Shown in pieces: positions 430-21,495 of a stretch of 64,000 bases of DNA. Numbering within the stretch: position 1 is the stretch's first letter; each line of letters opens with the position of its first letter. Made by a program: the position numbers and the translations under genes. Under the pieces are notes generated by a model. That model was not told where the DNA came from. It saw nothing but the letters and a program-made list of their open reading frames with translations, and ran no database searches. Source of the stretch: Raillietiella orientalis (Eukaryota); assembly GCA_036172245.1 (NCBI GenBank), contig JAYWIR010000006.1, positions 4,836,001-4,900,000 on the forward strand, given 5' to 3'.

Positions 430-1900
430 GGGCCGAGGAGCCAAAGGGGAGCCAGCAGCGCTAGCTGCATGTCGGACCGAGACCGGAAGTCCCCCAGCTG
501 GGCGACGGCGATGGCGAGTGGGTGCCATTCGCTCCTTCGCCATCCTGGCGGGAGGTCCGGGCTCCACTGCCACTCCCCTGGAAGAGGGACCGCTCGCTGC
601 CGAGCATCGGAGAACCCGTCGTGCCCTCCGAAGGAAGGGCCCACGCGCGACGCTCCCGTTCCACAAAACGGGAAGACGAAGGGATCGACTGCAGCTTCCC
701 GAATTCCTTTCCACATGAATTTTCACGTGCCCCCCTCCCCGTTCCCGTGGCCGGCGCTCTGCGCGATGTTGCCCTCCCTGCCGCTCCTGGACCGCATCCC
801 GCTTGCCTTTGCACGATGGGAAATCCTTTCGGGTTCCTCTGTCCCCTCTGCTTTCCTTCCAGCTTTCTTTCTTTTGTTGGTGAGCCAGCTGCTGAGGAAC
901 CGTCCACCCCTTCGGGGATGAGGGGAGAGGGCACAACGGAGCTCTTTAACGCTGACTGCGCCGCCCCAGGGTGCCTGTGGTAACTTCAAGTTGTAGGAGC
1001 GTCCCAGGAAGGGACCACCCTATGAATCCAGGAAGTGCTCCGGAAGGAGGGCTCCTTGTTCCTCCCATGCTTGGAAGGAGCCCCAGAAGGGAACCACCTC
1101 TTCCTTACTTCCATTTTCACAGCCGGGAGGGGGCCGCTTCTTCTTCGAGCGGAACCCGAGAAGGATGCGCTCCTGGTTTTTTCCTCTGAAGTGGATCCCG
1201 AAGGGACATTCACCTGTCCTTCTGACCCTCTGGAGAGGCAGCTCCCGAGGGAATGTCTCAACCAGCTCCATGGCACGGCCCCATTTTCACAGTCAGAGGG
1301 AAACCTCGAAGAGCTCCTTGGTTACAGGAAGGACCCCGGAGGGTCGACTTCCAATCCCGAGGCCAGGTCAGCAGGGCCGTCCGGGGTCTTCCACCAGTGC
1401 TGCCGCACCCGAGGCCAACCGAGGTGCCGACCAGCGTATCGTCTTGCGGGGGAAGATCGAAACCCACGACACACCCTCCCTTGCTCGACATCGACTTCTT
1501 CCTGCCCCTCGGGGAGATTTGAAGCCGCGACTCCCGGTGCCCTTCCCGGCAGTTTCCTCGCGGCAGCCGCTTCCAGTCGCCGCGGCATGCTGTCCGGGAA
1601 CGGCCGGCTCCGTTGATTCCCAGCTGCCTCGCGCGGAAGATGGCGGAAGAGTCTCCCCGGGGGGTCTCGGACGAGGGAATTCGCGGGACTCTTATTCGGA
1701 GAGAGGATAAATCGCCTCGGGCGTTCGACCCTTCGCGAGATTTCGGACTGGGCTCGCATTCCATGGGGAGGAAGCCCCTGCACCCCATTTGGATGCTAGG
1801 TCGCGGTCCCGCTCCCCCCCTCTCCTTCGCTGGAAGAGTCTGGAAACGCCACCTCGCTCTCATGCTCCCGTCTTCGCGCTCCTATCGGCTACGTCTTCTG
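430..1900 (+). mobile_element. Degenerate Ty3/Gypsy-like pol remnant (RT ~430-980, RNase H ~1640-1900), interrupted by repeat M
   Basis: Frameshifted motif echoes in Gypsy order: 'GRRRWRVGAIR' (DGxWRxCxDYR), 'EDEG..STAASRIPFHMNF' (EDxxKTAFxTPFGxYEF), 'LLDRIPLAFARWEILSG' (LxxLPFxFxYLDDIL). After the M insertion: 'SDEGIRGTLIRREDKSPRAFDPSRDF..HSMGRKPLHPIWML..FAGRV' (RNase H DASxxGIGxxL..PxAFxSR..YSxxEKE..YLxGR). Heavily decayed, so the call is motif-level only. Confidence 0.4.
985..1560 (-). repeat. Repeat M copy 1 (tRNA-headed dispersed repeat, SINE-like)
   Basis: Colinear with 8785-9500(-) and 15900-16640(+). Shared blocks (M sense): gtcgtgggtttc, cctcggttggcctcgggtgcggcagcactggtggaag, gtcgaccctccggggtcc, gagctggttga..ccctcgggag, ggattcatag..ctcctacaacttgaag. 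Degenerate B-box-like ggagtcgcggcttcaaatc at its 5' end. Confidence 0.75.
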
Positions 1901-3169: not shown

Positions 3170-3785
3170 TAGGGAGAACATAGGGAGGAGACAATAAATA
3201 AATGAATAAAGACGGAAGGGAGGGGTAGGAGGTATTTAATTAAAGACGTTCCTTCCTTTCCGAAAGTGGCGCTGGACAGTAGCAACCTCCCTGGCGACTA
3301 TTGTGGAAGATGAGGCCACCTTGCTACTGTCCTCATGAGGGCTCCCACTGCCATGCTGGTGGCCCCCCTTCCGCTGCGAACCGTGACTCGAACGCATGGC
3401 AGGCCGTCATCACGGTGCGGATGCAACATGTCGTTACGATCGCAGCACCCTTCTTCAGCCCGTCTTCCGTGAATAAGCGTCTCAGCAAGTCCAAAGCGAG
3501 GGGTCCTGCGGTCGACAGAGAGTGGAAGGGAGTCTCCGCCACAAGTCGTCCGGTGCACTGCAGTCCAACAGGAGGTGCGGGAGCGCTTCCATCGCTCCGC
3601 ACCTCAAACAGTTCTGGGAGGCGGTTCCCCCGGAAACCAGGCGTCCGCGCTGATTGAACCGGAATCCCCGGTGCAGCAACAGAAGGACATCCCTTTTCTA
3701 CCAGAGCAAGAAGATGGAGGTGTCCACACACAGGGCAGGGACCAGTAGTTCTTTTGGTGGTCACACCAAGCAGGTCACGAAGCGA
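3170..3785 (-). mobile_element. L1/Tx1-like non-LTR retrotransposon, copy A (ORF2 C-terminus with zf-RVT, partial 3' UTR)
   Basis: Minus-strand peptide 'LLLHRGFRFNQRGRLVSGGTASQNCLRCGAMEALPHLLLDC' (CCHC zf-RVT), then 'RTVARWPHL', which matches the C-termini of copies B-D. A T-rich 3' UTR tract follows at ~3190-3215. The structured terminus is missing. Confidence 0.8.
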
Positions 3786-4798
3786 GCCCGGAGATGAGGC
3801 AGCGACTGCCGCCCTCCTTCTAGAACAACCGCTCTCTGCAGGACGTCATCGTGCAGTCCACCACGTGTGCGTGGGCGCAAACAACCTCCCTAGCCGGGAC
3901 ACTTTCCTCCCTCAGGGAGCATTTGGGCAGCAGCCAGCCGGCCAAATAGGAAGTCTGTTGTGAAATCTCGGACCGAGGGAAGGAACTAGATGCCTGGACC
4001 AAGGGCCAGCTCAGGGACGCTGAGACTCCAAGTGCTCCACCGAAGGGGCTATTGTACTGGGGTGAGCTGCTGGGAATCCTACAGGAAGACCTTGAGTGGC
4101 CCTCAGGGCTAAAGAACAAGCGGGCCCTCCCCCTGAAGTGGCAGGAGTTGGCACTCTTGTTGTTGTAATGGAGTATCCCGTAAAACGCCCGCCGGTCTCG
4201 CTGTACCCGGGGGGCTGTGGATCCGAACTGTGTCAGGTGCTGGGATAGTTACAGATAGCTCACACACCTGCTCGTAGACTTCGTTGCCCTCCGGGCCCTG
4301 TGGCTGCGTTACTCAACGGCCCTTGGTGCACCGACGGACGATCCCAGGGACGTGGCCCTTCCGCCCTGGCACATTCCCAGCAGCTCTTTGCTGCCTACGC
4401 GGGATTGGAGCAGCCTGGAGCTAGGCGAGGGGAGGATGGCGCGTTAGGGACGCCATCTGCTTCGCCCTGCGCTTTCTGTGGACGGCAGCAAGATGGCCCA
4501 GTTGGGGCATACCCGGAAGGAACTTGCTGGCATCCTGGAAAGGATGCAGAGGACGCCCTCCAGCTCCCAGTGATCTCTTCCCTAACGCTCCCAATTTTTT
4601 TTCTGTTTATATTACTTCGTTTTATTTTAATTCCTGTTTGCCCCCGCCCCCTTCCTTCGCTGCCGAGGCGGACCTCGCCGGCCTGCGTGCCGGTCACTCG
4701 GCAGGTTCCGAGCCTTTTCGGACAATGTAGGGCCGATGGCCCTACACCTCTATGTTTATTATTTTTATAATAAACGTCCTGGCTTGACCGGGTGATAA
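3785..4798 (+). mobile_element. L1/Tx1-like non-LTR retrotransposon, copy B (5'-truncated; ORF2 C-terminus plus complete structured 3' end)
   Basis: Plus-strand degenerate peptide 'RSLQDVIVQSTTCAWAQTTSLAGTLSSLREHL..YWGELLGILQEDLEWPSG..LPLKWQELALLLL..VDPNCVRC..LTHLLVD' aligns with copy C. It is followed by a T-rich tract, the hairpin module at 4660-4792 and the terminus gaccgggtgataa. Confidence 0.85.
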
Positions 4799-5979
4799 AC
4801 CAAGCAGGCCACTCCACCGAAGGAGCCCTTCCGCCCAGAAACGAGGAGTGGCGGCTAGAGGAGGTTATTCTGGTACCTCTGAAACTTCCGGGAAGGACAA
4901 GATCGATTTCCAGTGGTCCCAATTTCTCGGAGGTGAGGTCACTTGCCAGCTAATGCACGCGAGTCGAACGGAAAGGGTCGGAATTTTTGCCCTCGACCGT
5001 CGATGAGTCCGCATCGTTTGCACGCATGCGCAAGAGCAAGTGCTTCGGTGCGAATCCTCCTTGCAGATTAACACGCCTACCAGACGAAAAAGAGCTCCTG
5101 GTCTCGGAAGGTCGGTAAGAAAGCAAACCGTGGAATGAAAGAAAAAAAAAATGTTTATGCATTCTTCCCGGATGGCTTGGAAGATCGTTTCGCCCAAAAT
5201 GAGCGTCTTGCGATGACCCTCAAAAAACCCCGCTGGCGGACATCTTGAAGCGCCTCTTCGGAGGTGCGGCGCCTCCTGTCGCACCGATCACGACTCTTTG
5301 ATACTGCACGGCACGGCGTGGCGCCGAGCGAGGTCAGCAAGGATGGAACGCCTGCCATTCTCATGACGACTTCCTCCTTACAGGAGACAGTGGAACGCCT
5401 CCCCTCTTGGTTAGACGGTTGCAGGAACTTGTCTCCGTCCTTCACCGGAGTCATGGATTCCTTGACAACCGTCAGTTGACTTCCACCGCCACCACTCGCA
5501 CTATCCCCCATCCTCACCCACTTAGATGATCACGTCTTGTTTATCCTCTCTGTTTATTCGGCTGCTGCCTTTTCCCCCTACTTCCCGATGCAGTCTCCCC
5601 CCCCCCCCATGCCCGTCGCCTGGCATCTCCTGTATTATACGGATTGAGGCATTCTGTGTTCGGGCTCCTCCGGGTGCGAGGGGCGAGGTGAGACGGTCGC
5701 CGCATCAGCCTGCGGTTCGCGTCGCATGGTAGCTGCCCCGTCGAGTGCTCCTCTCACGGAGTGGGGCAACACCACCTACTCGCAGACACCATCCTCTTTG
5801 GGGTCGAAGAAAAGAGCCGCGTCTGCGTCCTAATGAATGGCAGGAGACGAGGTGAACCTCCGCGTTGCTCCCCCTCGAAGCCAAGCGCTGCAGGTCTCCT
5901 GCTGCTGGTTCCGAAACGTGGAGACGAATTTCCTGGAGCATCTAAGCGCATCCAGAAATCAAGAGGGCAACTTTTTTCT

Positions 5980-7499: not shown

Positions 7500-8720
7500 G
7501 AACTCTCTCAATCCCCTGATCCATCGGAGCGGGAGACCCCTGGCTTCGGTGTTCTCGGGAGACGCGCGACCGAGGGCTCCCCTCCTCCATTGGGGAACAG
7601 ACGGCTGCGCGCGGGGCGGAGGTCTCCGTACGGACGCGCTGGGATCGCTCTCTCTCGTGTGCGCCTCTCCCAGGGGGTCGTCTACTGCATGAATAAGCAA
7701 TGGCGCCTCGAGAGGCGAAGACGGGTCTGTTTCCAAATTGGACTGACTTCCCGAGCTGCTGAGTCCCCTCGCACCGACAGGCAGATCCGTCCCCCCTTGC
7801 AAATGAAGGGAGGGGAGTAAGGTGCCATGAGAGATGCCGCCGAGGAAGGGAATCTTCCACGGGACCGGGAGCTGCTCCCCTTCTCAGATCCCCTCTCCCC
7901 CCCCCGCCAGCGATACATCAAAGGGAGGCGGTGCGGAGGTGACTACGGGAAGCAGCGGAAGGGAACAATCAGCGTGCCACGCAGCGCGGCTTCCCATCGG
8001 ACGCCCATCGCGAGGAAGGGGAAGGAGAGGAGGAGGGGAAGAGCGTGTTGTTGCATAGCGATGAGGGGAACACGACCCTTCCACCACGAGCGCCCTGGAG
8101 GTGTTGCCGGCAGCGGCGAGGAGCTCTGCGGCTCTGCGCTTCGGGAAAAAAAAACAGTCTCCCGGTCGTTCCCAAATTTCTCCCCTCCTTCTCTCTCAGG
8201 ATCTCTCACTGGCAGCAGAAGCAGCGCCTCTATACCTGGCGCATCGAGGAGCTCCAGAGCCAGAACGGGGACTCCCTTCCCTTCTTCCCTCTTCTCCCGC
8301 ACCTCCCTCACCGGAGAGGGAAATTCACTTCCGGCCTGCCTCATCGCGCCTAGGAGGCGCTTCGCCGCGGGGCGACCCATTGCGCCGGATGCTCTCGAAT
8401 GCCTCCCTGACATCTGTTTTTCCGTGGTGCCTAGGGACCCCGCTCGCACAGCCGCTCCGAGGGAGTGACTGCTGCCCAGCTCCGGAAGGTGGGAAAGGGA
8501 CTTCCAGGACGCTGGCCCCAGGCTGAGAATGCGTCCCGAGAGCACCTTGCGGTGTGCCGCAGAGCGCCTCCTCGTTAGCCCAGAGATGTGGAGGTGGAAC
8601 ACCTTCAACTGGCCTCTTCCCTGACCTTTTCTTCTGGAGTCTTCATTGACAGATCCCGTTGAGACCTCTCCTCCGTGTCTTCCGTTCCTCGGGGTGCCCT
8701 TTTCCACCAAGTGCTCAGGA
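7500..8720 (+). mobile_element. Degenerate Ty3/Gypsy-like pol remnant (protease-like plus RT)
   Basis: In order: 'PLIHRSG..S' (LIDSG), 'PPRAPWRCCRQRRGALRLCASGKKN' (SPWxSPxxxVxKxDGxLRLCxDYRKLN), 'LSQDL..HWQ', 'HFRPASSRLGGAS..RRML' (FxxMPFGLxNA..QR), 'FQDAGPRL', 'TFNWPLP' (IxNWPxP), 'LPFLGV' (LRxFLG). Multiple frameshifts. Confidence 0.5.
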
Positions 8721-8784
8721 ACCTCTCTGCTGGGGGCTCGTGAAGCTCTCTGACACTGTCCTTGTCACCGGGGGCTGCTCACGA

Positions 8785-9500
8785 CCCTTCAAGCTACAGG
8801 AGGTGACCCAGGGAGACGACCACCACTATATGAATCCATCTCTTCTCTGGAATCCGGGAAGGATTCCGTTCCTCCTACGCTTGGGAGGGAAACTCCGAAG
8901 GGAACCGCCTCTTCCTCGTTCCCTCCGGAGAGACCTTCGGAGGAAGCCGCTCCTCGTTTCTTTCCTGGACCACTCGAACTCGCAAGGGAACCGCTCCTTG
9001 TTTCCTCCTCCGAAGAGAACCCCGAAAGCACTCTTCCCAGTTTCTCTGCAGGGAGCAACGCGCCTCTTGACACTCTGAAGGGGCAACTCCCGAGGGGGTG
9101 TCAACCAGCCCCAGGGTACTCTATGGAGCTGGTTGACCGAGGATTGTGGATGAGGGGTGAGAAGCCTAGCAAAAGGTGTCTTCCGGACCCAGGACGCCCT
9201 TGCGTCCCCTAAGAGGGGGGATAAGGGGGGCGATGGCTTCATTTGCACAACCATTTGATTCCTGGAGGAACCCCGAAGGGTCGAACCCCAATCCCGAAAG
9301 CCAGCCAGTGGGGGTTTCCGGCTTCCAATAGTGGCCGCACCCTGAGCCAACCGAGGGGCCAAGCAGCTCCATCCCGCGAAGGGTGATAGAAACCCACGAC
9401 GCAGTTTCCATTCTCGGTGTCTACTCTTCCCTTTCCTCCCCGGGCAGGATTCGAACCCGTGGCGCCCGATGCACGTCCTCAGGCTACCGCCGCCGCAGGC
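8785..9500 (-). repeat. Repeat M copy 2 (tRNA-headed dispersed repeat)
   Basis: Colinear with copy 1 from the head (cgggttcgaatcctgc, a B-box/T-arm-like motif at ~9442-9457) to ctcctgtagcttgaag. Three ~42-bp internal subrepeats at ~8897-9027. Confidence 0.8.
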
Positions 9501-9529
9501 CTTCAAGGCAATACCGCAGCTCTTCTGGC

Positions 9530-9694
9530 ACTCCAGGGAGGTAGCTCCCGAGGGGAAGGATCGACCAGCTCCATGGTATCCGTTCTCACAGCCTGAGTGA
9601 AACTTCGAAGGGCTCCTTGGTTCCTGGAGGGACCCCAAAGAATCGACTCCCAATCGCGGCCGGTCGACTGCGGCGTCCGGCTTCCACCATTGCT
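9530..9694 (-). repeat. Repeat M copy 3, downstream part (continues from 13612-13790)
   Basis: Minus strand agcaatggtggaagccggacg..gggagtcgattctttggggtccctccaggaaccaaggagcccttcgaag..ccatggagctggtcga..ccctcgggag aligns with M copy 1 starting at 'agcactggtggaag'. Confidence 0.7.
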
Positions 9695-9868
9695 CGAACT
9701 TAAAGACTTCTGCGCTGGGGCGTGTTACTGAATATTCCGGAGGAAGACTGCAGTAGTTCCAGGTGCTCATGAAGACCCGCATCCTCTCCTCGGAGTGGCG
9801 GGAGTCGGCGTTGATGCTGCTACACTGGAGTCCCCCGTGCAACTCCCGCTGGCATGGACACGAGGGCG

Positions 9869-12800
9869 TTCCCACCCGGTCACGCCGGGGCGTTTATTTC
9901 TAAACTCTGTACATTTGCGGTACGAGGCCCCGCTACGGCCAATAGATCGTGGAGCCTGCTGGGAAGCTGGTGCGCAGACCGGCTTGACTCTCCTCGGCAG
10001 CGGTGGGGATGGGGGAAAACAAAAATAAAAATAAAAGGGAAAACAAAAAAAAGAAACACTTGGGTGGGCCGGGAAGGGATCACTGTCCGCTGGAGGAAGA
10101 GACCATCCTCTTCAGGATGCCCTCGAGGTCCCTCTGCATAGCTCTCAGATGGGACCATCCGATCGCGATTCGCAGGTAATGACCCGCATGTATGATGGGG
10201 TCCCTATCGCTGCTTCCTCTGTTGGCTGCGCTCCACGCAGCCACAATCCCCCGGAGGCAGCAGAGCGCTGCCAGGGCTGAGGCTGGTTGCAGGGCGTCTC
10301 ACATGAAGAGGAGTCGCACAACGTCTCTGGGGGGACTGCCAACCGGCATCCGGAGGGTCGTAGCAGAACGTTCTCACAAGGGCCGGAGGGCAGCGCAGTT
10401 CACTAACAGATGGGGGAAAGATTCCTTCTCCCCGCACACTGCACAGTTCTGTCCCACGTTCCCCAACGTCCAGTGGTGGCGGCGCGCGTTGCAGGGAAGA
10501 CCCCAATGCAACAACAGCAGCGCCGTTTCCTGCCACTTGAGGGGAGGGTGGATGCATCTCTAAATAACGAGGACCACTTTAGGTCATCCACCGGGATGCC
10601 AAGCAGCTCGCCCACCTCTGGATTCCTCGCGGGAGAACGCTTGGGGCCGCGGCGTCAGCCAGTTCCCTCATGGTCCACCCACTTAGATCCTTCTTCTTGC
10701 CCGCATTCCGGCAGGTGACTTGCCACCTCGGTTTCCGGCTGTTATGAAGCGCTCTTCTCAGGAAGGGCAGCGCCGTGGCCAGTGGGGTCGTCTCCGCAAA
10801 AGTGCTTCTGGCGGGACACACGATCATGTTCCGCAGCGTGCAGCGGGTGTAGATGCCGGTACGCAGACGGTTGCAGGATTCTCCACTGAGGTCGTTTAAC
10901 TTTGCCCACGTTTCAACTGTTTCTTCCAGCCATGCGCTGGAGTTGGCGGGGCTGCAGGCCATCCACCCGTTCTCCTTTTCCAGGGTGGCCATGCGTCCTG
11001 GGAGAAGGCCGCATCTTCTTATTTTCCGGCCAAGGCACAGAAGAAAAGACGCGAGTCCTTCAGTCCCTGGCACACGTCTGGCGAGAAGGCGGTCCGGAAC
11101 GCACCAAGGGGTGCTCCACATCTTCGCCGCAATGGCTGGGGTATGACACCGCAGCTGTGTTTCCATTCGCTCCATCGTCAGGACGCTAAGACCTCCGGTC
11201 CCAACATGGAGCGCACAAATCCTCCAGAGGTACACGAGGCCTCCCGCCGCCCCACAGGGCGATGCGCAGGAGGTCCTTCGTTCTCTTTTTCATCTCACGG
11301 GGTACGGGGCAAACAAAAAGCAGGGGGCGAAGGAGGGGGGCTGCGAACGCGTTCCACACCGCGGCCCGTTCCGGCAAGTGAAACTTGCCTCCCAGGAACG
11401 GGCCGATAGCCGACTCCACTTTCTGACGAATACCTGACCAGGCTTCGGACTGGCAGAAGTCCCCGAACGGAACGCCAAGGTACTTTAAGTACCTCTCCTT
11501 GGGAATCCCCAGGCGGATCCAGTCAGGTCATCCTGCCCACCTCACGTTGCACCAGCCGCTACTACCGACGACTTGTTCCTGTTCACCCGTAGTCCTGTCC
11601 TGCGGCTCAGCAGGTCGAAGAAATCCTCGACTGCCAAAGCCGGGGCGGACATGAGCAGCAGGAGCAGAAGATCGTCAGCATACGCCGACGTGGCCGGCGG
11701 CACGAGCTCAGCAAGGCAGCCAAAGTCACCCTGTATGCACTCAGCACCAGTTCGAAATAGGTGCTAAAGAGCAGGGGACTCAGGCTGCACAGACTTCCAA
11801 TAGGCCGCGCGGATCCGACGGCGACAGGCGAGCCCAGGTGCTAACGCTGGGAAATCGGCGTTGCGGCGTCCGTCACCTGTTGGGGCTGGACGCTAGGAGG
11901 TGAAGGGGGGGGTGCTTCAAGCACCTGGTCCCCCTCCTCCATGGGTGCCGACGCGTCAGGCGGGTCGCCCGATGGTGGGGTCTCGCCCCCCTGCTCACCC
12001 TCCGCCATGGGTGTCGCCTATTTTCCGGCTTTCGAGCGTGGGAGATCCCCCTCAGGGGTTACCTCGCTCACGTCAGCTTCCGGCTTCTCCTCCTCGCTGG
12101 TTGACTGGAGGCGCCTCCTAGGATTCTGGGAGTTGCGTCCCGCTTTCCGTGGGGGTGCCCCCGCGGAGGAGGATGAACTTCTGGTCCCCAGGTCAGACTC
12201 ACCTGCCTACGGAACCTTCCTCGCGGCCGGCCTTCACAAGGTCTTTCGCGAGTTTTTCTCACGGCCTTGTAGTTCGGCCGCGAGTTCTTCCGCCGCCTGC
12301 TGGAAGGCGGCCTCCTCGAGCGCGTCGCGCAGTTCCCCCTCTGTTTCCCCAGAGGGTTTGCCATCCACCGTCGCGGCTTCGGCGGACGCGAGGGGGGGGA
12401 TTGCTTCCCCGGTGGCGGCATCGAGTGCCTCCACACACTCTGAAGCCACCGAACACGTGCGGAGTTTTTAGCGGCACGGTTTTTCGCGCGGCGTTTTTTT
12501 CTCCGCGTTTCGTTCGTGACTTTTCTCAACCGACGTTTGCTGGGAGGATTTAGGGACTGGCTTCTGGCTTTTTACAGCCTTTGCCTGTTTTAAGGCATTC
12601 TCTTCTCCCGCTCGAAATAGGTGCTAAAGAGCAGGGGACTCAGGCTGTCGCCCTGCCGGATGCCGCGCCTTACCGGCACGCCGAACACGTTCTGTCCTCT
12701 GAAAAAAACGGTGATGATCGCATTGCGCCAGCAGGCACGCAGGTAGGTCGTTAAGGCGTCCGGGAAGCCCATGAGATCCAGGAGCTCCAAAAGGAGTTTC

Positions 12801-12985
12801 TGGTCCACGCAATCGAACGCTTTGTGCAGATCGACTGCGATCGCTAGAACCCCCTTCCCTCCCTGGTTGTCCCTTACTTGCCGCGCTAACGCCCCCAAAT
12901 CAGGGTTGCCGACATTCCGTCTTTCCTTCTTTTCTTGGTGTTGCACATGGAACCATGTGCTGGCGAAGAACAGGCTCCAAGGACA
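9869..12985 (-). mobile_element. L1/Tx1-like non-LTR retrotransposon, copy C (RT to 3' end), interrupted by an 824-bp insertion
   Basis: RT motifs 'AIAVDLHKAFDCVD', 'RRGIRQGDSLSPLLFSTYFE', 'SAYADDLLLLL', 'TGLRVNRNKS', 'YLKYLGVPFG', then 'GGLSV' and zf-RVT 'NCAVCGEKESFPHLLVNC'. C-terminus 'GWSHLRAMQRDLEGILKRM', T-rich tract, structured end aaataaacgccccggcgtgaccgggtgggaa. Frameshifts and stops indicate it is inactive. Confidence 0.92.
11788..12611 (-). mobile_element. 824-bp insertion flanked by a perfect 36-bp direct repeat; low-complexity ORF1-like content
   Basis: tcgaaataggtgctaaagagcaggggactcaggctg occurs at 11752-11787 and 12612-12647. Removing the insert and one repeat rejoins the RT. 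The insert reads on (-) as a charged, disordered peptide with stops (ELRDALEEAAFQQAAEELAAELQG..STSEEEKPEADVSEVTPEGD). The ORF1 assignment is inference. Confidence 0.75.
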
Positions 12986-13611
12986 AGGGAGCGAGTGGAT
13001 CCAAACTGTGCCAGGAGCGGGAGCGGGGGTCCTCCCGCACCTCCTAGTAGACTGTCTTGCCCTCCAGGCCCTTTAGGGACGCTTTGACACGATCCTTGGA
13101 ACCCCCGGTGGCAATGCGAGAAACGTTTTAAAGTGCCTCTTTCTGCGAGACGCCCTCATGCCGGCCGCATCCCCAGCAGCACTTTGCTGCCCACGCGGAG
13201 GGATCGTGGCTTCATGGAGCATCGTCAGAAGAGGCCAGGACGACAGAAACGCCATTTATTTTGCTGTCCTCTTCATGAGGACAGCATCAAGATGGCCCCA
13301 TCTGGGAGTCTTGAAGCAGGAACTTGCCGGCATCCTTATAAGGATGCAGAGGACGCCCTCCAGCACACAGTGATCCCTTCCCAACCCAACTCCCACTCCA
13401 TTTTTCTGAGTGTATGTTTTTTGCTTTATTTTATTTTATTTTTTGTCTCCTCTTTCCCTGTGCTGCCGAAGCGAACCCTGCTGACCCGCATGCCACTTCC
13501 CGGAAGGCTTCTCCTCCTCGTAGTTGTAACTAACGTAGCAGCATCAAACGTCCTGCCACGTATGTGGGTGTTTATTTTATAAATAAACACCCCGTTGTGG
13601 CCGGGTGTCAA
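12985..13611 (+). mobile_element. L1/Tx1-like non-LTR retrotransposon, copy D (5'-truncated; zf-RVT to 3' end)
   Basis: 'VDPNCAR..VLPHLLVDCLALQAL*..AALCC..GIVASWS..RTASRWPHLGVLKQELAGILIRMQRTPSSTQ*', T-rich tract, hairpin gggtgtttattt-tat-aaataaacaccc (13566-13592), terminus ggccgggtgtcaa. Confidence 0.88.
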
Positions 13612-13790
13612 TTAGTACCGCCGCACCCGAGTAGACCAACCATCGCCATCCTGAGGAGAGACCCGAGCATCCACGATGCAGTCCCCGGTCTCGGCTTTCA
13701 ACCTTCCCCCCAGGCGGTATTCGAACCCGCGACTCCTGGCCAAACAAAAGGCCGCAGCCTACGCAGACCCTTTTGCTTGACCCCATTTGG
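13612..13790 (-). repeat. Repeat M copy 3, tRNA-like head and upstream part
   Basis: Minus strand ggagtcgcgggttcgaataccgcctggggg (B-box/T-arm-like, gcgg/ccgc stem), then gcatcgtggatgctc, then ggttggtctactcgggtgcggcggtact. It ends where the 9694 segment begins. Confidence 0.65.
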
Positions 13791-15400: not shown

Positions 15401-15899
15401 AGCCTGAGGGTTCACCGTCTTCGACTTCCGCAAACACTTCCGTAGGGAAACTTTTACTCCCGGACTGCAGGGAGCCCTGTAGAAGCGATGGGATGTGTCT
15501 GTTAGGAGGAGCTTCAGAAGATGGCCTGTCGAGATCCAAAAAGACAGAAAGAAAGAAGGAAAGAAAATGCATCCGCGAGAGTGACTTCGGACGCAGGAAT
15601 CCTGCTGATGATGACGGCGGCCAAATGACCAAGCATCGTACACGATCGACAGTACCGAAAGGGTCGTCCTAGATCTCGAAGCAAATCTCTCACGGGAACG
15701 AGGAATGAGTTTTGGGACCCGGGCTTACCTACTCGGAGTTTCCCGCTACAAACTAGTGCTCACTCAGGTCTGCCAGGTTTCACCTCATTCATCCTCGCCT
15801 CTCTCTTTCTGCACCTGAGTACCTGGGTCTTCTTGCCGGTCTGTCCGTCTGCCTCCCTGTTTATCCTGCTGGAGTGAGAATTACAGTAAATAAGGCGAT

Positions 15900-16640
15900 G
15901 GCTTCCCGTCATGGGATTCGAGTCCCCTCTCCCACTCGGGACGACGTTGGATGATCGCTCGGTTGGCTTCCCCCTTCCCCTGTGCTGCCGAGACAATCCC
16001 GCTGGTCTGAGTACCAGATTCCGGCAGGTTTCTTGTATTTATAAGAAAAGTGGCAGGATAAAACGTCCTGCCACAGACTTGTAAGTTTATTTTAAATAAA
16101 TGCCCCGGTAGACCAGGAGTCAACCCCTCGGGACGACTCTGGATGCCTACTGGGTTGGTTTCGGATGCGGCACTGGTGGAAACTCGATGTCCCCGTTGAC
16201 CCTCCGGGGTCCTCCCAGGAACACTACAGGACACTACAGGGTTCCCCTCCGGTTGTGAGGATGGAGCCGTACCGTGGGGCTGGTTGATGTGTCCCTCGGG
16301 AGTTGCTTCTCCGGACTATCAGAACCACTCTGCTCCCTTCGAAGAGAGCCCTTCAATGACATGTGGAAGCATCCCTTTGGGGTTCTCTTCGGAGGAGGAA
16401 ACAAGAAGTGGCTCCTTTGAGGGTTGCATCCGGAGAAGAAACGAGAAGTGGCCTCCTGCCTTCCGGGGGATCCTTCCGGAGAGGAAAAGGAAGAGGTAGT
16501 TCTCTTCAGAGACATCCAGGGCGCGAGGGTTTCCTCCCAAGCGTCAAGAGGAACGGATTCCTTTCTCCGTAGCCTTCCTGGATTCCGATGAAGAAATGAA
16601 TTCATCCCCTCTCGGGATACCCCCTATCTCGAAGAGTTAC
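15900..16640 (+). repeat. Repeat M copy 4, interrupted by retrotransposon fragment E
   Basis: gtcatgggattcgagtccc, gggttggtttcggatgcggcactggtggaaac, gttgaccctccggggtcc, gggctggttga..ccctcgggagttgc, ggggttctcttcggaggaggaaacaag; colinear with copies 1 and 2. Confidence 0.8.
15971..16123 (+). mobile_element. Copy E: 153-bp 3'-terminal fragment of the L1/Tx1-like element with ~39-bp degenerate target-site duplication
   Basis: Matches the ends of B/C/D (ccctgtgctgccgag..cggcagg..aaacgtcctgccac..gtttattttaaataaa..cccggtagaccaggagtcaa). Flanks 15932-15970 and 16124-16162 are 30/39 identical. Confidence 0.75.
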
Positions 16641-19410
16641 GCTCACCCTCGGGTGGCGTGGAATAGTACTACGAAGGAGCTTCATGAGTCGCTAAGCGAA
16701 CAGCGAAACAGAAAAAAACCCAAGAGGATTTCGATCAATTTTAACCTGGCTTAAAAGATTGGATAACCCGTAATGGGTTTTAGCATTCGAATGTGGTAAG
16801 CATTTCAAACCTATATAAGTCAGGAAAAGAATGATGAGATCAGAGGGGCATCATGCCCCATTTCATGATTGCGAGCTCCGAGCAGCACTACATTATGAGT
16901 ATTTCGTGGATTCGGAAACACTGTGTCTTCTATTAGATCACAACAGTACTGCGTGTACCCAACCACAGTCCTTAATTCGCATATGTAAAAAGTACTAATA
17001 CAGATACACAGTCGATTGCAAAAATAACGTATACCTTGCTACCTTGGACGAAATTACGAATTTAAAACGACTATCTGACTGGAGAAGCCATATCTGCACA
17101 CGTCAGACCGCATTTGATTTTTCCTACAAAAAAAAACAACGTCTTTCTAGTTTTGGTGCTTTGCAATTTAGTGTTTCGCATAATTAACTAAATAGATTCA
17201 ACCACAAGGAAGGCACACGAGATTTAGACTCGATGTGAAGTGCAACAGTTTGATAATGTGCATTCTGATTTACCGTGTAAGTAAAATTCTCAATGGAAAA
17301 GCAAATATCAGCAGAAATGGAGATTAAGAAGGTAAAGAAATTAAAATGAGTAAGAAGTGTATTTTTAAGTAATCTGAATTCAGAATGGTCAGCTGAATTC
17401 TGTGAACTCTTTGAAAAGTCTAAAATTTCAGTCTAAACACGAAAAGTTCATAGAAAATTAGTAATTTGTATTTTTAACATTGGTAATATATAAACTGAAG
17501 CTGGTAAAAATTTGCACTCACAGATGATTCATTATTTTTTGTTCATCCTAAATTGTTCTTCTAGGCTTTTTGATTATACCTAGTATAGTGTCTCTGGAAA
17601 TGGGAAGATGCTTTCGAAATATGAAAATCCCTTCATCGTTCCCGACTTATAGGTTTGAACATCCCGTGAACTTTAACAGATGGCTAGTATGGCTCAATCC
17701 TTGCCCCCTACTGCAACGTTACAATAGTCTTCAGAGAAAATATCGAGCATGACGACAACAAAAATTCAACCTGTCATGTAACTTTTGCAATTAGCTGATA
17801 TCTGCATGAAGTTTCGGTGTCAATTGCAAATCTGGGACGTATTGTGTGCTCCTGGCTTCCCATCATGTTTCGATAAGGAGAGTGAACCTTCACTAGCATG
17901 TTGGGAATCCGATTTTCTGACGAGAGTTTTTATGGTTCTGGAGGCCCCGTTTTATCATCTGGCACCCATGTTGTAAACATTGGCCGATTGTCATTTTTTG
18001 CATGCACTGAAGGAATGATTTTGGTTTTCGTTTAGTTTCAAATTTGTTCACACCATGCGTTGGAAAACGGCTCTTTGAAACCTTTTGCTTCATCCCCTGC
18101 CTGGAATCGTAATGAAGGAAAAGAAATGCGGGAATGCCTTTATCAGCTGCTTTCCCAAGTTGCAGGTATCGAAATCAATTCACTGTCTGAGTTTCAGAGA
18201 AGGACGAAAGTGAAACACTTAAAAAGCTGCCGAGGGACGTTGACTGTGAAATTGCAAAAAGTGACAAGTTTCCGAATCGGGAAAGCTTCTGCGGATAGTA
18301 GAAATGTTTCTTTGTTTGCCATTTGGAAAATTTGTCATTCGTTTGTACTTTGTTCGTGACGTGACTTAATTTTTCATTAAGGGTAGCCGAATTCAAGGTA
18401 TCGTAAACGTGGATGGACTCTGTAAATAATTGATGCACCTGCATCAAATAAATTGCCGTTTATTTAAATCGGGGAAAATTTTTCGAAAGCTTATTATTAA
18501 ATTCCTTGTAATGTGTTTTGAGAAAAAGTGATGCCCACTCTTCGATTTCCCCCCATTTTCAGTGCGTTCCTTTATTCTGGCAGACGAATCGGATTATTAA
18601 ATAATTTTTTGGTTAATTTGCAAATTCGTAAAATAGAGGAATATAAACTACCGAGACTTGGTGTTTGTGTTTTCACATAAATGTGTAGATATTGCATGCG
18701 ATCCCAGTTGGTATTCCAAATTCCTGTTAGAACAGCAAGAAGCTCAATTATCAATAGTCTGCTTATGTCAATATTCTTAGCAATTACAAAAGTGCCTGTT
18801 TAATCGCTTGCTAGTACAAAATTTGAAGCACCGAATAAATTCCCCATCATTAGATGAAGTGTAAAGTTTTTGTTAGCAAGCATCATGTGTTTGTTTGTTA
18901 AACTTGTAGATAACATTGGACTTTCCCACTGTACATACATATTAGTATCAAAATTAAAAGCAATTTTTAAAGCCCGGAATGTAAGCAATAACATTCATGG
19001 AAATATTTTGAGTTTAATTCTTGCCTAGCATCAAAATGAGAATTATTTTTAGTTTTTGTTGATTTGAATTTGAATGCTTTTCTTTTTCTGATCCTGTGCC
19101 TACGATACAAAATTATTTTCAGCCATATTTTTTGCTGCTTTCTACCTTTATTTTGCATTAGTTTAATAATGATTATGCATGTGCAGGTGAAAATGAAAGA
19201 ACAACAAAATTTATTTAATGCATTACTTTACATGGAAATCAAAGGAGATACAGTGTAAATGGATTCCGGAGTGAATCCAAAAATTGTTTTTCTGTTCCTC
19301 TGTGATCATTGTATTTATAACCATCTAAAGCAAATATTTTATAAGCAAGTGAATGGAGCATTTTTCATTCAGATTTATGTAAACATGTAAACAGATTTGA
19401 AGAAGGTGTT

Positions 19411-19438: not shown

Positions 19439-21495
19439 AAGAATGATATAACAGCATATACAAAACTGCAGAATGGATTCCATCAAAAATTTTACCAACA
19501 TAAAATACTAATATTACCAAACTTACTACTTCAAAGACAGGTTTGTTGTTTCCTGTTTAAGTAGTTCTGATCTTGAACTTCATTAATTCAAAAGTTCTGA
19601 TTTACTGAGTACTATTTCAATGACAGTAGTGCGATTGTATCCTGTGTGCCTGTTTTCATTCCTTTAAATTCATGGATGTGTTTCAACCATGCTTTCCATG
19701 CTGTTCCAGAGTATTTTGCCTATTGCATGCCACCATTCAATTAATCTGTATCTCAGTTGCCCTTATGTTTATGCGAAAAAAAAAATAAAATTTTGCACTA
19801 TGTTAAGCTCTGAGATTTTGTTTGCATCCCTTTGCAATTTCAGGATTCAGTGATTTGTTCTGTTATTAAGTGTTTGAATTTGTAATTTAGACTGGAATCC
19901 ATGGTACCTGTACCTTTACTCCTGCAAATCGTTGCTATATTAGCTCTTGTTTCCTTCCTAATGAGTTAGATGCTGTAACAATCTATAAAAACAAAGCCTT
20001 TTGTGGTACATATTCAAATAATGGAGACTTATTTTTGTCTGCTTGTCAAGGTTAGTATCAATGAACACTTATCCAATTCCGACCATTAGATACGTACGTC
20101 CGTGTTTTTGACACATCCAAGGGGCAATTCCATCTAAAAAAAGAAATCAAGGCAAAAAACGTGGGCTGGAGCATTTTGGATACTGCATTTAGCCCCACTT
20201 GTCAGTTCATTGCATATAGCAGTTGGTCTGAAGCTCGTATGTTATTGCACTTGAATGTTGTTTGGTCACTTTTTGTATTGTTTTTAGTCCATTTGTGTGA
20301 CATTAGCGATGAGTGTAGTTTTCATGGAACTCTAGCAATGTTTCCAGAAAACAGGCAGTTTTGTATATTCTCTTTGACATTTTCGCATGATGGTAGTGAA
20401 ATACTAGGTGGAGCAAATGATCGTTGTTTGTACATATGCAACATTGAAAATAGCAGAAATAAGTGGTTAAAGGTAAACGCAGCTGACATTTATTCTGCAA
20501 TGATGATGTTCTTTGTAGATTGAGTGCCATGATGATGATGTCAATGTGGTTGCATTTGCAGATGAAAGTTCACAAATTTTGTTCAGTGGAAGCGATGATG
20601 GCTTGTGCAAAGTGAGCAGCAAATGATTATACATATTAGGCCCTCTTTATTCAAATCACACAGGGAATTATCTTGACCAAGAGTGGAAAATGATCTTATC
20701 TGTGCACATTCAATTTACGCTTATTCATGTTTCTTTTTGAAAGGCCTGGGATAGAAGGATTCTCAGTGAATCCAATGCTAAACCAGTAGGAGTACTTGCT
20801 GGTCATAAAGATGGAATTGTCTTCATTGATTCAAGGGGTGATGGGCGTTACCTTATTACTAACTGTAAAGATCAGACCATCAAGCTATGGGACATGCGAG
20901 TATTTTCATCCACACTTGGTCAAGATAACACTCGCAAAGCAGTAGGAAGACACAAATGGGATTATCGTTGGCATAGTGTTCCAGCAGCCTGTAAATTAGT
21001 GTGTTGATTGTTCGTGTTGTTATCACGTTTTGTCTTAGTGGATCCGTCAAAAAGTGCACTTGCGGGTGACTCATCTGTCATGACATACTATGGCCACACT
21101 GTACTGCAGACTTTAATTCGTTCTCGTTTTTCTCCCGTTCATACGACTGGCCAGCAGTACATTTATACTGGATCTTCGATGGGTGCCATATTCAGTATGT
21201 ATAAAGGAATCAGGAATGTAATTGTTTCTTGTGTAACTGTTGCAGTTTATAACTTGCTTACTGGACACATTGAAAAACTTCTTCAAGGGCATGAAGAATG
21301 CGTAAGAGATGTAGCATGGCATCCTTATTCGAATGAAATTATTAGCAGCTCGGTAAGAAAGAATGTTGCTGTTTTGGTGGTGCTGGAGTGTAAATGTCCC
21401 CCCCCCCCCTTTTCTTTTTTTTTTAGTGGGACTCCACGCTGAGAAAATGGACTTACCAAAACAAAGAGGGATTGCGATCGTTAATACACTTGTAA
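19439..21495 (+). CDS. DCAF11: DDB1- and CUL4-associated factor 11 (WDR23/WDR-23), WD40 CRL4 substrate receptor; multi-exon, 5' start not resolved
   Basis: Exons with GT-AG boundaries and continuous frame: 19439-19540, 19891-20050, 20090-20236, 20288-20472, 20519-20611, 20744-20990, 21039-21194, 21246-21352, 21427-21495 (TAA). Peptides FLPNE..KAFCGTYS.NG..FLSACQD, NVGWSILDTAFSP, ILGGANDRCLY, HDDDVNVVAFADESSQILFSGSDDGLCKAWDRR, GHKDGIVFIDSRGDGRYL..KDQTIKLWDMR, WDYRW, GDSSVMTYYGHTVLQTLIRSRFSPVHTTGQQYIYTG, CVRDVAWHP..ISSSWD match DCAF11 closely. Confidence 0.95.

What the first reader, a model, noticed from the sequence alone, without database searches (positions are those of the whole stretch)
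9530..13790. Retrotransposon copies pile into one site of a tRNA-headed repeat (Tx1-like target preference)
Seen: intact repeat M reads ...cctcggttggcctcgggtgcggc-agcactggtggaag... M copy 3 is split at this point. Its upstream half ends at 13612 (..ctcgggtgcggcggtact) and its downstream half resumes at 9694 (agcaatggtggaagcc), with a ~3.9-kb block (copies C, D and a nested insert) in between. Independently, copy E sits in M copy 4 within ~20-60 bp of the same motif, in the opposite relative orientation. Copy B is followed by M-like sequence (agaaacgaggagtggc, ~4837). Known: Tx1-clade elements are often sequence-specific (Xenopus Tx1L in the Tx1D transposon, Dewa in tRNA-array spacers, Keno in U2 snRNA). 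Inference: an undescribed pair of a target-preferring non-LTR element and a Pol III-like host repeat.
Basis: partly seen in the sequence, partly recalled or inferred. Interest (0 to 1): 0.72.

Follow-up and report, generated by a model that had tools for sequence, protein, structure and literature searches.

The report
LINE subfamily homing to one SINE base
An extinct family of jumping genes (a LINE) in this animal genome landed most of its copies backwards at one exact base of an older short repeat (a SINE), while its sister families picked other fixed spots, including the LINE's own gene: a new landing pad for a known kind of targeted element.

Summary
The split of repeat M is real: LINE copy D sits antisense in M copy 3 (9695-13611), and copy C later landed inside D. 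Genome-wide test: of 192 exact D-type 3' ends, the first 66 listed were read; 41 of 66 end at the same base of M (model position 290), antisense. Chance is about 2 in 100,000 per insertion. M's other half lies upstream in 37 of 40 long copies, with 13-14 bp duplications and varied 5' truncations, so these are separate insertions. M is a tRNA-headed, older, SINE-like repeat. Corrections: E uses a minor second site 49 bp away; B's flank is LINE ORF2, not M; C targets ORF2. Sister subfamilies hit M290 in 0 of 57 copies and have their own sites. The element is an L1-group endonuclease LINE; Tx1 membership is unresolved. Real tRNA genes are not hit (0 of 40). This scan noted SINE-targeting and self-targeting before in other windows of this genome, mostly from two or three cases each; this adds the genome-wide test. 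Verdict: new variant of a known kind.

The parts
13612..13782 (-). M copy 3, head half: tRNA-like head and body up to the insertion site (model M105-290); first 8 bases are the decayed right copy of the target duplication
   Evidence: head aligns with the genome's tRNA-Arg(CCT), 50 of 76 columns (model head)
12981..13611 (+). LINE copy D, 3' part (end of ORF2 and 3' UTR, terminus GGGTGTCAA); first 13 bases are the duplicate made by C
9869..12980 (-). LINE copy C, 5'-truncated in RT, inserted antisense into D's ORF2 near codon 1090
   Evidence: (RVT_1 1.8e-8)
11788..12611 (-). ORF1 C-terminal half plus ORF2 start of the same family, inside C's RT, between exact 36-bp duplicates 11752-11787 and 12612-12647; no family 3' terminus
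   Evidence: blastx to ORF1 residues 266-493 and ORF2 1-33
9695..9868 (+). LINE copy D, 5' part (ORF2 codons about 1030-1085)
9519..9694 (-). M copy 3, tail half (M284-462); 9687-9694 is the decayed left copy of the target duplication
8700..9525 (-). M copy 2, full length, not interrupted by a LINE, joined directly behind M copy 3 (dimeric M)
863..1566 (-). M copy 1, full length, empty target site near 1391-1400
15898..16715 (+). M copy 4 (head missing), interrupted at M241 by E
15970..16123 (+). LINE copy E, 154-bp 3' stub of the D/E subfamily, sense in M at the minor site M241, duplicates 15931-15969 / 16124-16161
3779..4799 (+). LINE copy B (B subfamily), inserted into an antisense ORF2 fragment of a related LINE near codon 1041; duplicates 3766-3778 / 4800-4812

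Best explanation
An L1-group LINE subfamily (D/E type, now extinct) inserted by target-primed reverse transcription, copy by copy, into an older, already decaying tRNA-headed SINE. Its endonuclease nicked the SINE's sense strand after a GG at M290; that end primed cDNA synthesis, so the LINE lies antisense; a second nick 13-14 bp away gave the duplication. The enzyme needed little more than CC/GG at off-target sites but strongly preferred the sequence or shape of M290, which M supplied in thousands of copies. Sister subfamilies with other 3' termini preferred other fixed sites: M704 (sense), and two antisense sites in the LINE's own ORF2. Shown: site, strand, duplication, independence, subfamily-specific sites. 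Inferred: that the endonuclease sets the preference, and that the benefit is avoiding host genes.
For: 41 of the first 66 listed exact D-type ends lie at M290 antisense; 46 of 66 are in M antisense at all. Similarity-picked sets agree: 20 of 29 and 15 of 27, classified. Null: 7 M sites in 200 kb of arbitrarily spaced DNA, 1.75e-5 per base and strand; 7 of 1,675 CCAG words. Internal control for repeat density: 0 of 28 C-type and 0 of 29 B-type copies at M290. 37 of 40 long copies have M's tail half directly upstream; inserts run 365-1,652 bp with 27 different lengths; 16 of 27 duplications are 13-14 bp, and several pairs share private changes absent from the M majority. M diverges 0.19 from its majority, D/E 0.11. 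All 32 M290 rows fall in the D/E clade (100/99), mixed with off-target copies. Intact relatives encode APE endonuclease, RT and a C-terminal knuckle.
Against: 20 of 66 ends are not in M antisense, and off-target sites share only CC, so a strict long recognition sequence is not evident. Occupied and empty M copies barely differ in conservation around the site (M271-277: 0.13 vs 0.21, p 0.0075 uncorrected, 1 of 13 windows). No intact D-type copy was found (best hits 78-85%), so its endonuclease was not examined. The exact-15-mer sample favours well-preserved ends. M's higher divergence may partly be subfamily structure.
Confidence: 0.68

Rival explanations
1. Homing by read-through RNA: the endonuclease is relaxed (CC/GG), and a source copy sitting at M290 makes RNA that runs into its flank and pairs with the nicked primer, so progeny are guided to the same base of other M copies; each subfamily's target is simply where its source copy landed.
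For: Each subfamily has its own target, some inside its own ORF2; all share a 13-bp duplication starting with C, nearly always CC in D/E and B. Off-target flanks lean towards CCAG. In about 5 of 18 readable off-target duplications the 3' copy is closer to CCAG than the 5' copy, 1 unclear the other way (judged by eye). PMC4494074 (passage) says cotranscription with target RNA can strengthen target-specific integration.
Against: An AATAAA lies about 24 nt before the terminus, which suggests cleavage at the element's end (sequence; inference). No up/down asymmetry at on-target duplications. Two of the five shifts are CCG to CCA, which decay can give. Most off-target pairs are identical on both sides.
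Confidence: 0.15
2. Tethering to the Pol III machinery bound on M's internal promoter, as for Dictyostelium TRE3, places insertions about 100 bp downstream of the B box.
For: The junction lies 88-123 bp from the B box in 24 of 38 copies where the box was found, inside TRE3's 40-150 bp window (PMC5911963, passages).
Against: Single-base precision while the distance varies by 35 bp; antisense, whereas TRE3 is same-orientation; 0 of 40 real tRNA genes have a family 3' end within about 390 bp downstream; B boxes of occupied copies are not better kept (0.128 vs 0.148, p 0.26); 1 of 22 off-target sites has a B box within 250 bp. Caveat: selection could clear insertions beside real tRNA genes, and indels may postdate insertion.
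Confidence: 0.08
3. One or a few M copies carrying a LINE fragment were amplified as a composite SINE, or were spread by gene conversion, so the shared junction is inherited rather than re-created.
For: M is itself mobile and a dimeric form exists; 18 near-identical pairs of old copies show that local conversion or duplication occurs.
Against: 27 different insert lengths; duplications carry copy-specific changes on both sides; star-like tree with M290 and off-target copies mixed; two tandem cases where a second copy re-entered the same site (L209, L242).
Confidence: 0.04
4. The co-occurrence only reflects local repeat density.
For: M and the LINE share GC-rich repeat patches.
Against: M covers 2.8% of 200 kb; junctions fall on one base and strand; sister subfamilies from the same patches hit M290 in 0 of 57.
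Confidence: 0.01

Closest known systems
Tx1L in Tx1D (Xenopus) and crocodilian Tx1-Mar in Mariner-N4_AMi, Tx1-8_Crp/Tx1-4_AMi in LTR elements, Tx1-9_AMi in Harbinger (PMC4494074, passages and section 15; PMC1950540, passages)
   Same: APE-type LINE that prefers a fixed position inside another dispersed mobile element; related families with different targets
   Different: Target here is a tRNA-headed SINE-like retroposon; sister subfamilies target the LINE's own ORF2; clade placement in Tx1 not shown; invertebrate host; endonuclease lacks Tx1L's extended hairpin tip
Keno (U2 snRNA genes), Kibi/Koshi (microsatellites) (PMC4494074, passage); Dewa in tRNA arrays (recalled, not read)
   Same: Sequence-specific insertion into a multicopy target
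   Different: Target is a decayed dispersed repeat, about 95 bp past the tRNA-like head; real tRNA genes are not hit (0 of 40)
Dictyostelium TRE3 (PMC5911963, passages)
   Same: L1-group APE LINE found about 100 bp downstream of a tRNA-type promoter
   Different: TRE3 uses a 40-150 bp window, same orientation, real tRNA genes; here one base, antisense, no real tRNA genes
Zepp of Coccomyxa/Chlorella (PMC3446292, passages)
   Same: LINE copies nested in their own family (C and B subfamilies; large nested clusters)
   Different: Here insertions are antisense at defined ORF2 codons and also dispersed; one cluster per chromosome not tested
Human LINE-1 ORF2p (PDB 8UW3)
   Same: Same domain order; best solved relative (E 1.7e-51 versus 7e-16 for R2)
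   Different: No poly(A) tail at insertions, fixed 13-14 bp duplication starting CC rather than TTTT/AA nicking, ORF1 with CCHC knuckles

Membership tests
L1-group APE non-LTR retrotransposon | ORF2 with APE endonuclease, RT and C-terminal CCHC | tested here: met
   Intact relatives L161, L166: Exo_endo_phos 5.5e-11/3.3e-11, RVT_1 2.3e-22/1.6e-16, zf-RVT weak 0.021/0.0014; best solved match human L1 ORF2p. Window copy C RT is 81% identical to L161
L1-group APE non-LTR retrotransposon | 5' truncation, fixed 3' end, target-site duplication | tested here: met
Tx1 clade | RT groups with characterised Tx1 elements | tested here: inconclusive
   No named Tx1 reference was on hand; family forms a long isolated branch (1.58) on an unresolved base in a 52-sequence FastTree tree; homologues at most 32% identical except one unnamed metagenome protein at 67%
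Tx1 clade | Target preference for a repeat (over 20% of flanks, criterion of PMC4494074) | tested here: met
   41 of 66 at one base of M
Tx1 clade | Tx1L-type extended endonuclease hairpin (RDGH tip, PMC1950540) | tested here: not met
   L161 endonuclease shows no such tip and a 16-residue gap against L1 just before the loop; D-type enzyme itself not available. A Tx1L feature, not shown to define the clade
Tx1 clade | ORF1 with CCHC zinc knuckles (recalled feature, shared with plant L1) | tested here: met
   zf-CCHC hits E 3e-4 to 2e-3; nearest atlas clusters zf-CCHC / ZCCHC3-like, a lead only
tRNA-derived SINE (repeat M) | tRNA-related head with B box at a sharp 5' boundary | tested here: met
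   Model head aligns with own tRNA-Arg(CCT), 50 of 76 columns; B box in 35 listed copies, flanks diverge upstream. ARAGORN and Rfam find nothing in the window
tRNA-derived SINE (repeat M) | Dispersed, high copy, non-coding, A-rich 3' end | tested here: met
   2.8% of 200 kb; about 800 bp; terminal A run seen in 4 of 57 tail copies, internal A run in most
tRNA-derived SINE (repeat M) | Tail shared with a partner LINE | tested here: inconclusive
   M tail matches this LINE family only where copies are inserted; other LINE families not compared
tRNA-derived SINE (repeat M) | Own target-site duplications | not tested
   flanks of full-length M not scored
tRNA-derived SINE (repeat M) | Pol III transcription | not testable with these tools
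   no RNA data served
TRE3-type Pol III-tethered LINE | Window downstream of real tRNA genes, same orientation | tested here: not met
   0 of 40 tRNA genes; one base, antisense
Zepp-type self-nesting LINE (C and B subfamilies) | Insertion into copies of own family | tested here: met
   C type 14 of 28 at ORF2 codon about 1090, antisense; B type 4 of 29 at codon about 1041 plus window B
Zepp-type self-nesting LINE (C and B subfamilies) | One cluster per chromosome | not tested
   cluster map not made

The most novel reading that the evidence does not exclude
This LINE family retargets without changing its endonuclease: read-through RNA from wherever the source copy sits guides progeny to the same base of other copies of that repeat, giving a succession in which each subfamily colonises an earlier repeat (SINE, then the LINE's own ORF2). 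That would be an RNA-templated, reprogrammable site choice in an L1-type element.
Probability: 0.15. Interest if true: 0.85.

Novelty: new variant of a known kind. Interest (0 to 1): 0.52.

Why it matters
Target-specific LINEs are known for RNA genes, microsatellites, DNA transposons and LTR elements; eight library searches showed no report of one aimed at a single base of a SINE, though the library lacks most subscription papers and Repbase. The larger value is the natural series: three close subfamilies with the same 13-bp geometry and different fixed sites, plus intact young relatives, which makes it testable how an APE LINE switches target, by protein or by RNA.

Tried and rejected
B's flank as M: rejected. 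D and C as one twin-primed inversion: rejected, C has its own 3' end and duplication inside D. A 3' terminus that copies the target upstream of the nick: considered, dropped because the shared bases after the junction are the duplication. Three of 30 automatic duplication picks were wrong (L031, L039, L047) and were left out of the length tally. Footprint of recognised bases from occupied versus empty M: inconclusive. ARAGORN and Rfam on the window: nothing. Metagenome scan with the family's 3' motif: 0 matches. Sequencing runs: none was listed. Tx1 placement: no named reference obtained. Host taxon: DCAF11 exon gave 45-56% hits, named ones tick, copepod and sandfly; phylum not determined. Upstream flanks of 14 long copies were not read, so their 5' junctions stay open. 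PMC5786205: abstract and outline seen, not used. Supplements were not opened; flank alignments in the supplement of PMC4494074 may bear on duplication lengths of Tx1 families.
Full report
OBSERVATION. The window lies in a 210-Mb, 491-contig eukaryote assembly and carries DCAF11 (named hits tick, copepod, sandfly at 45-56%; phylum not determined). Self-comparison shows old repeats of 60-75% identity in the first 17 kb. A profile of repeat M built from 85 segments places M at 863-1566, 8700-9525, 9519-9694 plus 13612-13782 (one split copy) and 15898-16715. The block is nested: D (9695-9868 and 12981-13611, +) is the insertion into M; C (9869-12980, -) lies inside D between 13-bp duplicates (10 of 13); inside C's RT sits an 824-bp ORF1-end/ORF2-start piece between exact 36-bp duplicates. 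D's own duplication in M is decayed here (about 8 bp, 3 of 8 identical) and is placed by family register. E (15970-16123) is in M at model position 241, sense, 49 bp from D's site. B is not flanked by M: its flank misses the M profile at E 10 and matches ORF2 of related LINEs in antisense, with a 13-bp duplication.

THE ELEMENT. A search with C's RT gave 3,766 candidates, some in frames of over 1,200 codons. Intact relatives have ORF1 with CCHC knuckles and ORF2 with APE endonuclease, RT and a C-terminal knuckle, and no RNase H hit. The best solved relative is human L1 ORF2p. Database homologues are at most 32% identical, except one unnamed metagenome protein at 67%. In an RT tree of 52 sequences the family is a long isolated branch; no named Tx1 reference was available, so Tx1 membership is open. 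Copies end in a short fixed terminus about 24 nt after an AATAAA, without a poly(A) tail. A tree of 107 3' ends gives three clades, C (100/100), B (100/99) and D/E (100/99); 14 short copies and 3 duplicated loci were left out and the bootstrap had not settled. Median divergence from each group's majority: C 0.06, B 0.10, D/E 0.11, M 0.19.

THE REPEAT. M is about 800 bp: a head that aligns with the genome's own tRNA-Arg(CCT) at 50 of 76 columns, a B box, a body with subrepeats, an internal A run and, in 4 of 57 tail copies, a terminal A run. It covers 5,551 of 200,000 bp in 20 arbitrarily spaced stretches. It reads as a decayed tRNA-derived SINE; its own duplications and partner LINE were not established, and ARAGORN and Rfam see nothing in the window.

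GENOME-WIDE TEST. The exact 15-mer D-type terminus occurs 192 times (control 1). The first 66 listed were read: 62 newly fetched and 4 already held (L045, L125, L126, L147). Of the 62, 44 are followed by antisense M, 39 of them at exactly M290 (others 294, 295, 300, 278, 216); L247 was later shown to be at M290 too; 1 is at M241 in sense, E's site; 16 are elsewhere, 2 of them the upstream partners of tandem pairs that end at M290. Of the 4 held, 1 is at M290 and 3 are not. Total 41 of 66 at M290. Sets picked by similarity to D or E agree: 20 of 29 and 15 of 27. The 200-kb sample holds 7 M sites, so chance is about 1.75e-5 per insertion, or 0.4% given a CCAG word. Sister subfamilies from the same repeat-rich patches hit M290 in 0 of 28 (C) and 0 of 29 (B).

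INDEPENDENCE. In 37 of 40 long M290 copies M's tail half lies directly upstream of the LINE's 5' end; L038, L052 and L058 lack it. Of 27 valid duplications 16 are 13-14 bp (range 5-26), inserts run 365-1,652 bp with 27 different lengths, and several duplicate pairs share changes absent from the M majority (L010, L124, L137, L149), so the targets had already diverged. M290 and off-target copies are mixed in a star-like clade. This rejects a composite element.

OTHER SITES. C type: 14 of 28 at one antisense site near ORF2 codon 1090, as window copy C, with 13-bp duplications. B type: 5 of 29 at M704 in sense, 4 of 29 at ORF2 codon about 1041 in antisense, as window copy B; 20 elsewhere. Six further sense copies begin just inside M's tail, a probable further site whose 3' junction was seen once. 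Young intact-type copies show still other ORF2 sites (not counted).

MECHANISM. Geometry fits target-primed reverse transcription (established knowledge): a nick on M's sense strand after GG at M290 primes cDNA, a second nick 13-14 bp away makes the duplication. What picks the base is inferred. Endonuclease preference is the default (PMC4494074, PMC1950540, passages), but off-target sites share only CC and occupied M copies show no clear footprint. Pol III tethering as in TRE3 (PMC5911963, passages) fits the distance but not the single base, the strand, or 0 of 40 real tRNA genes (the 40 best-scoring of 62 listed; one weak ORF1-region match at L274 is not a 3' end). Read-through RNA guidance would explain quick retargeting; about 5 of 18 off-target duplications shift towards CCAG in the 3' copy (by eye), which is a hint only.

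KNOWN AND NEW. Tx1 families that prefer piggyBac, Mariner, Harbinger and LTR elements are described (PMC4494074, passages and section 15); PMC5035012 (introduction) lists transposons among LINE targets; Zepp nests in itself (PMC3446292, passages). Searches (listings and abstract starts) showed no LINE aimed at one base of a SINE; Kojima and Fujiwara 2004 and Repbase were not available. Earlier notes of this scan made both the SINE-site and the self-targeting claim in other windows of this genome, mostly from two or three cases; they are not independent support. Verdict: real, strong, a new variant of a known kind; interest 0.52.

Noticed in passing
L097/L099, L115/L119, L091/L092 (window copy B and G000:C6:4767961), L033/L041 and others: 18 pairs of loci share 95-99.9% identity over 0.5-3.3 kb although the families are about 10% diverged; most pairs lie a few to a few hundred kb apart on one contig, many inverted and with different flanks. 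Local gene conversion, inversions between repeats, or assembly joins.
   Followed up: partly
window 11752-12647: An ORF1-end/ORF2-start piece sits inside C's RT between exact 36-bp duplicates, same orientation, no 3' terminus; looks like a template jump or recombination product.
   Followed up: partly
window 8700-13782; L006, L007: Dimeric M: a copy cut near M462 runs straight into a full copy, with a similar junction in three places.
   Followed up: partly
L161-L180: Dense 60%-GC nests of young family members with intact ORF2 of 1,100-1,270 codons, many near contig ends; other termini (GGCAA, ATAAA) sit at further fixed ORF2 positions.
   Followed up: partly
L161:3850-4550: The endonuclease lacks about 16 residues that human L1 has just before the DNA-contacting hairpin.
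   Followed up: no
L129/L130: An intact tRNA-Ala gene lies about 20 bp upstream of a head-truncated M that carries a D-type insertion.
   Followed up: no
window 20065-21442 (+) and about 24200-58300 (-): Host genes: DCAF11 and exons that look like adenylate kinase 9 (name recalled, not searched).
   Followed up: partly
P0103: An unnamed metagenome protein is 67% identical to this ORF2 and groups inside the family, so close relatives exist outside this assembly.
   Followed up: no
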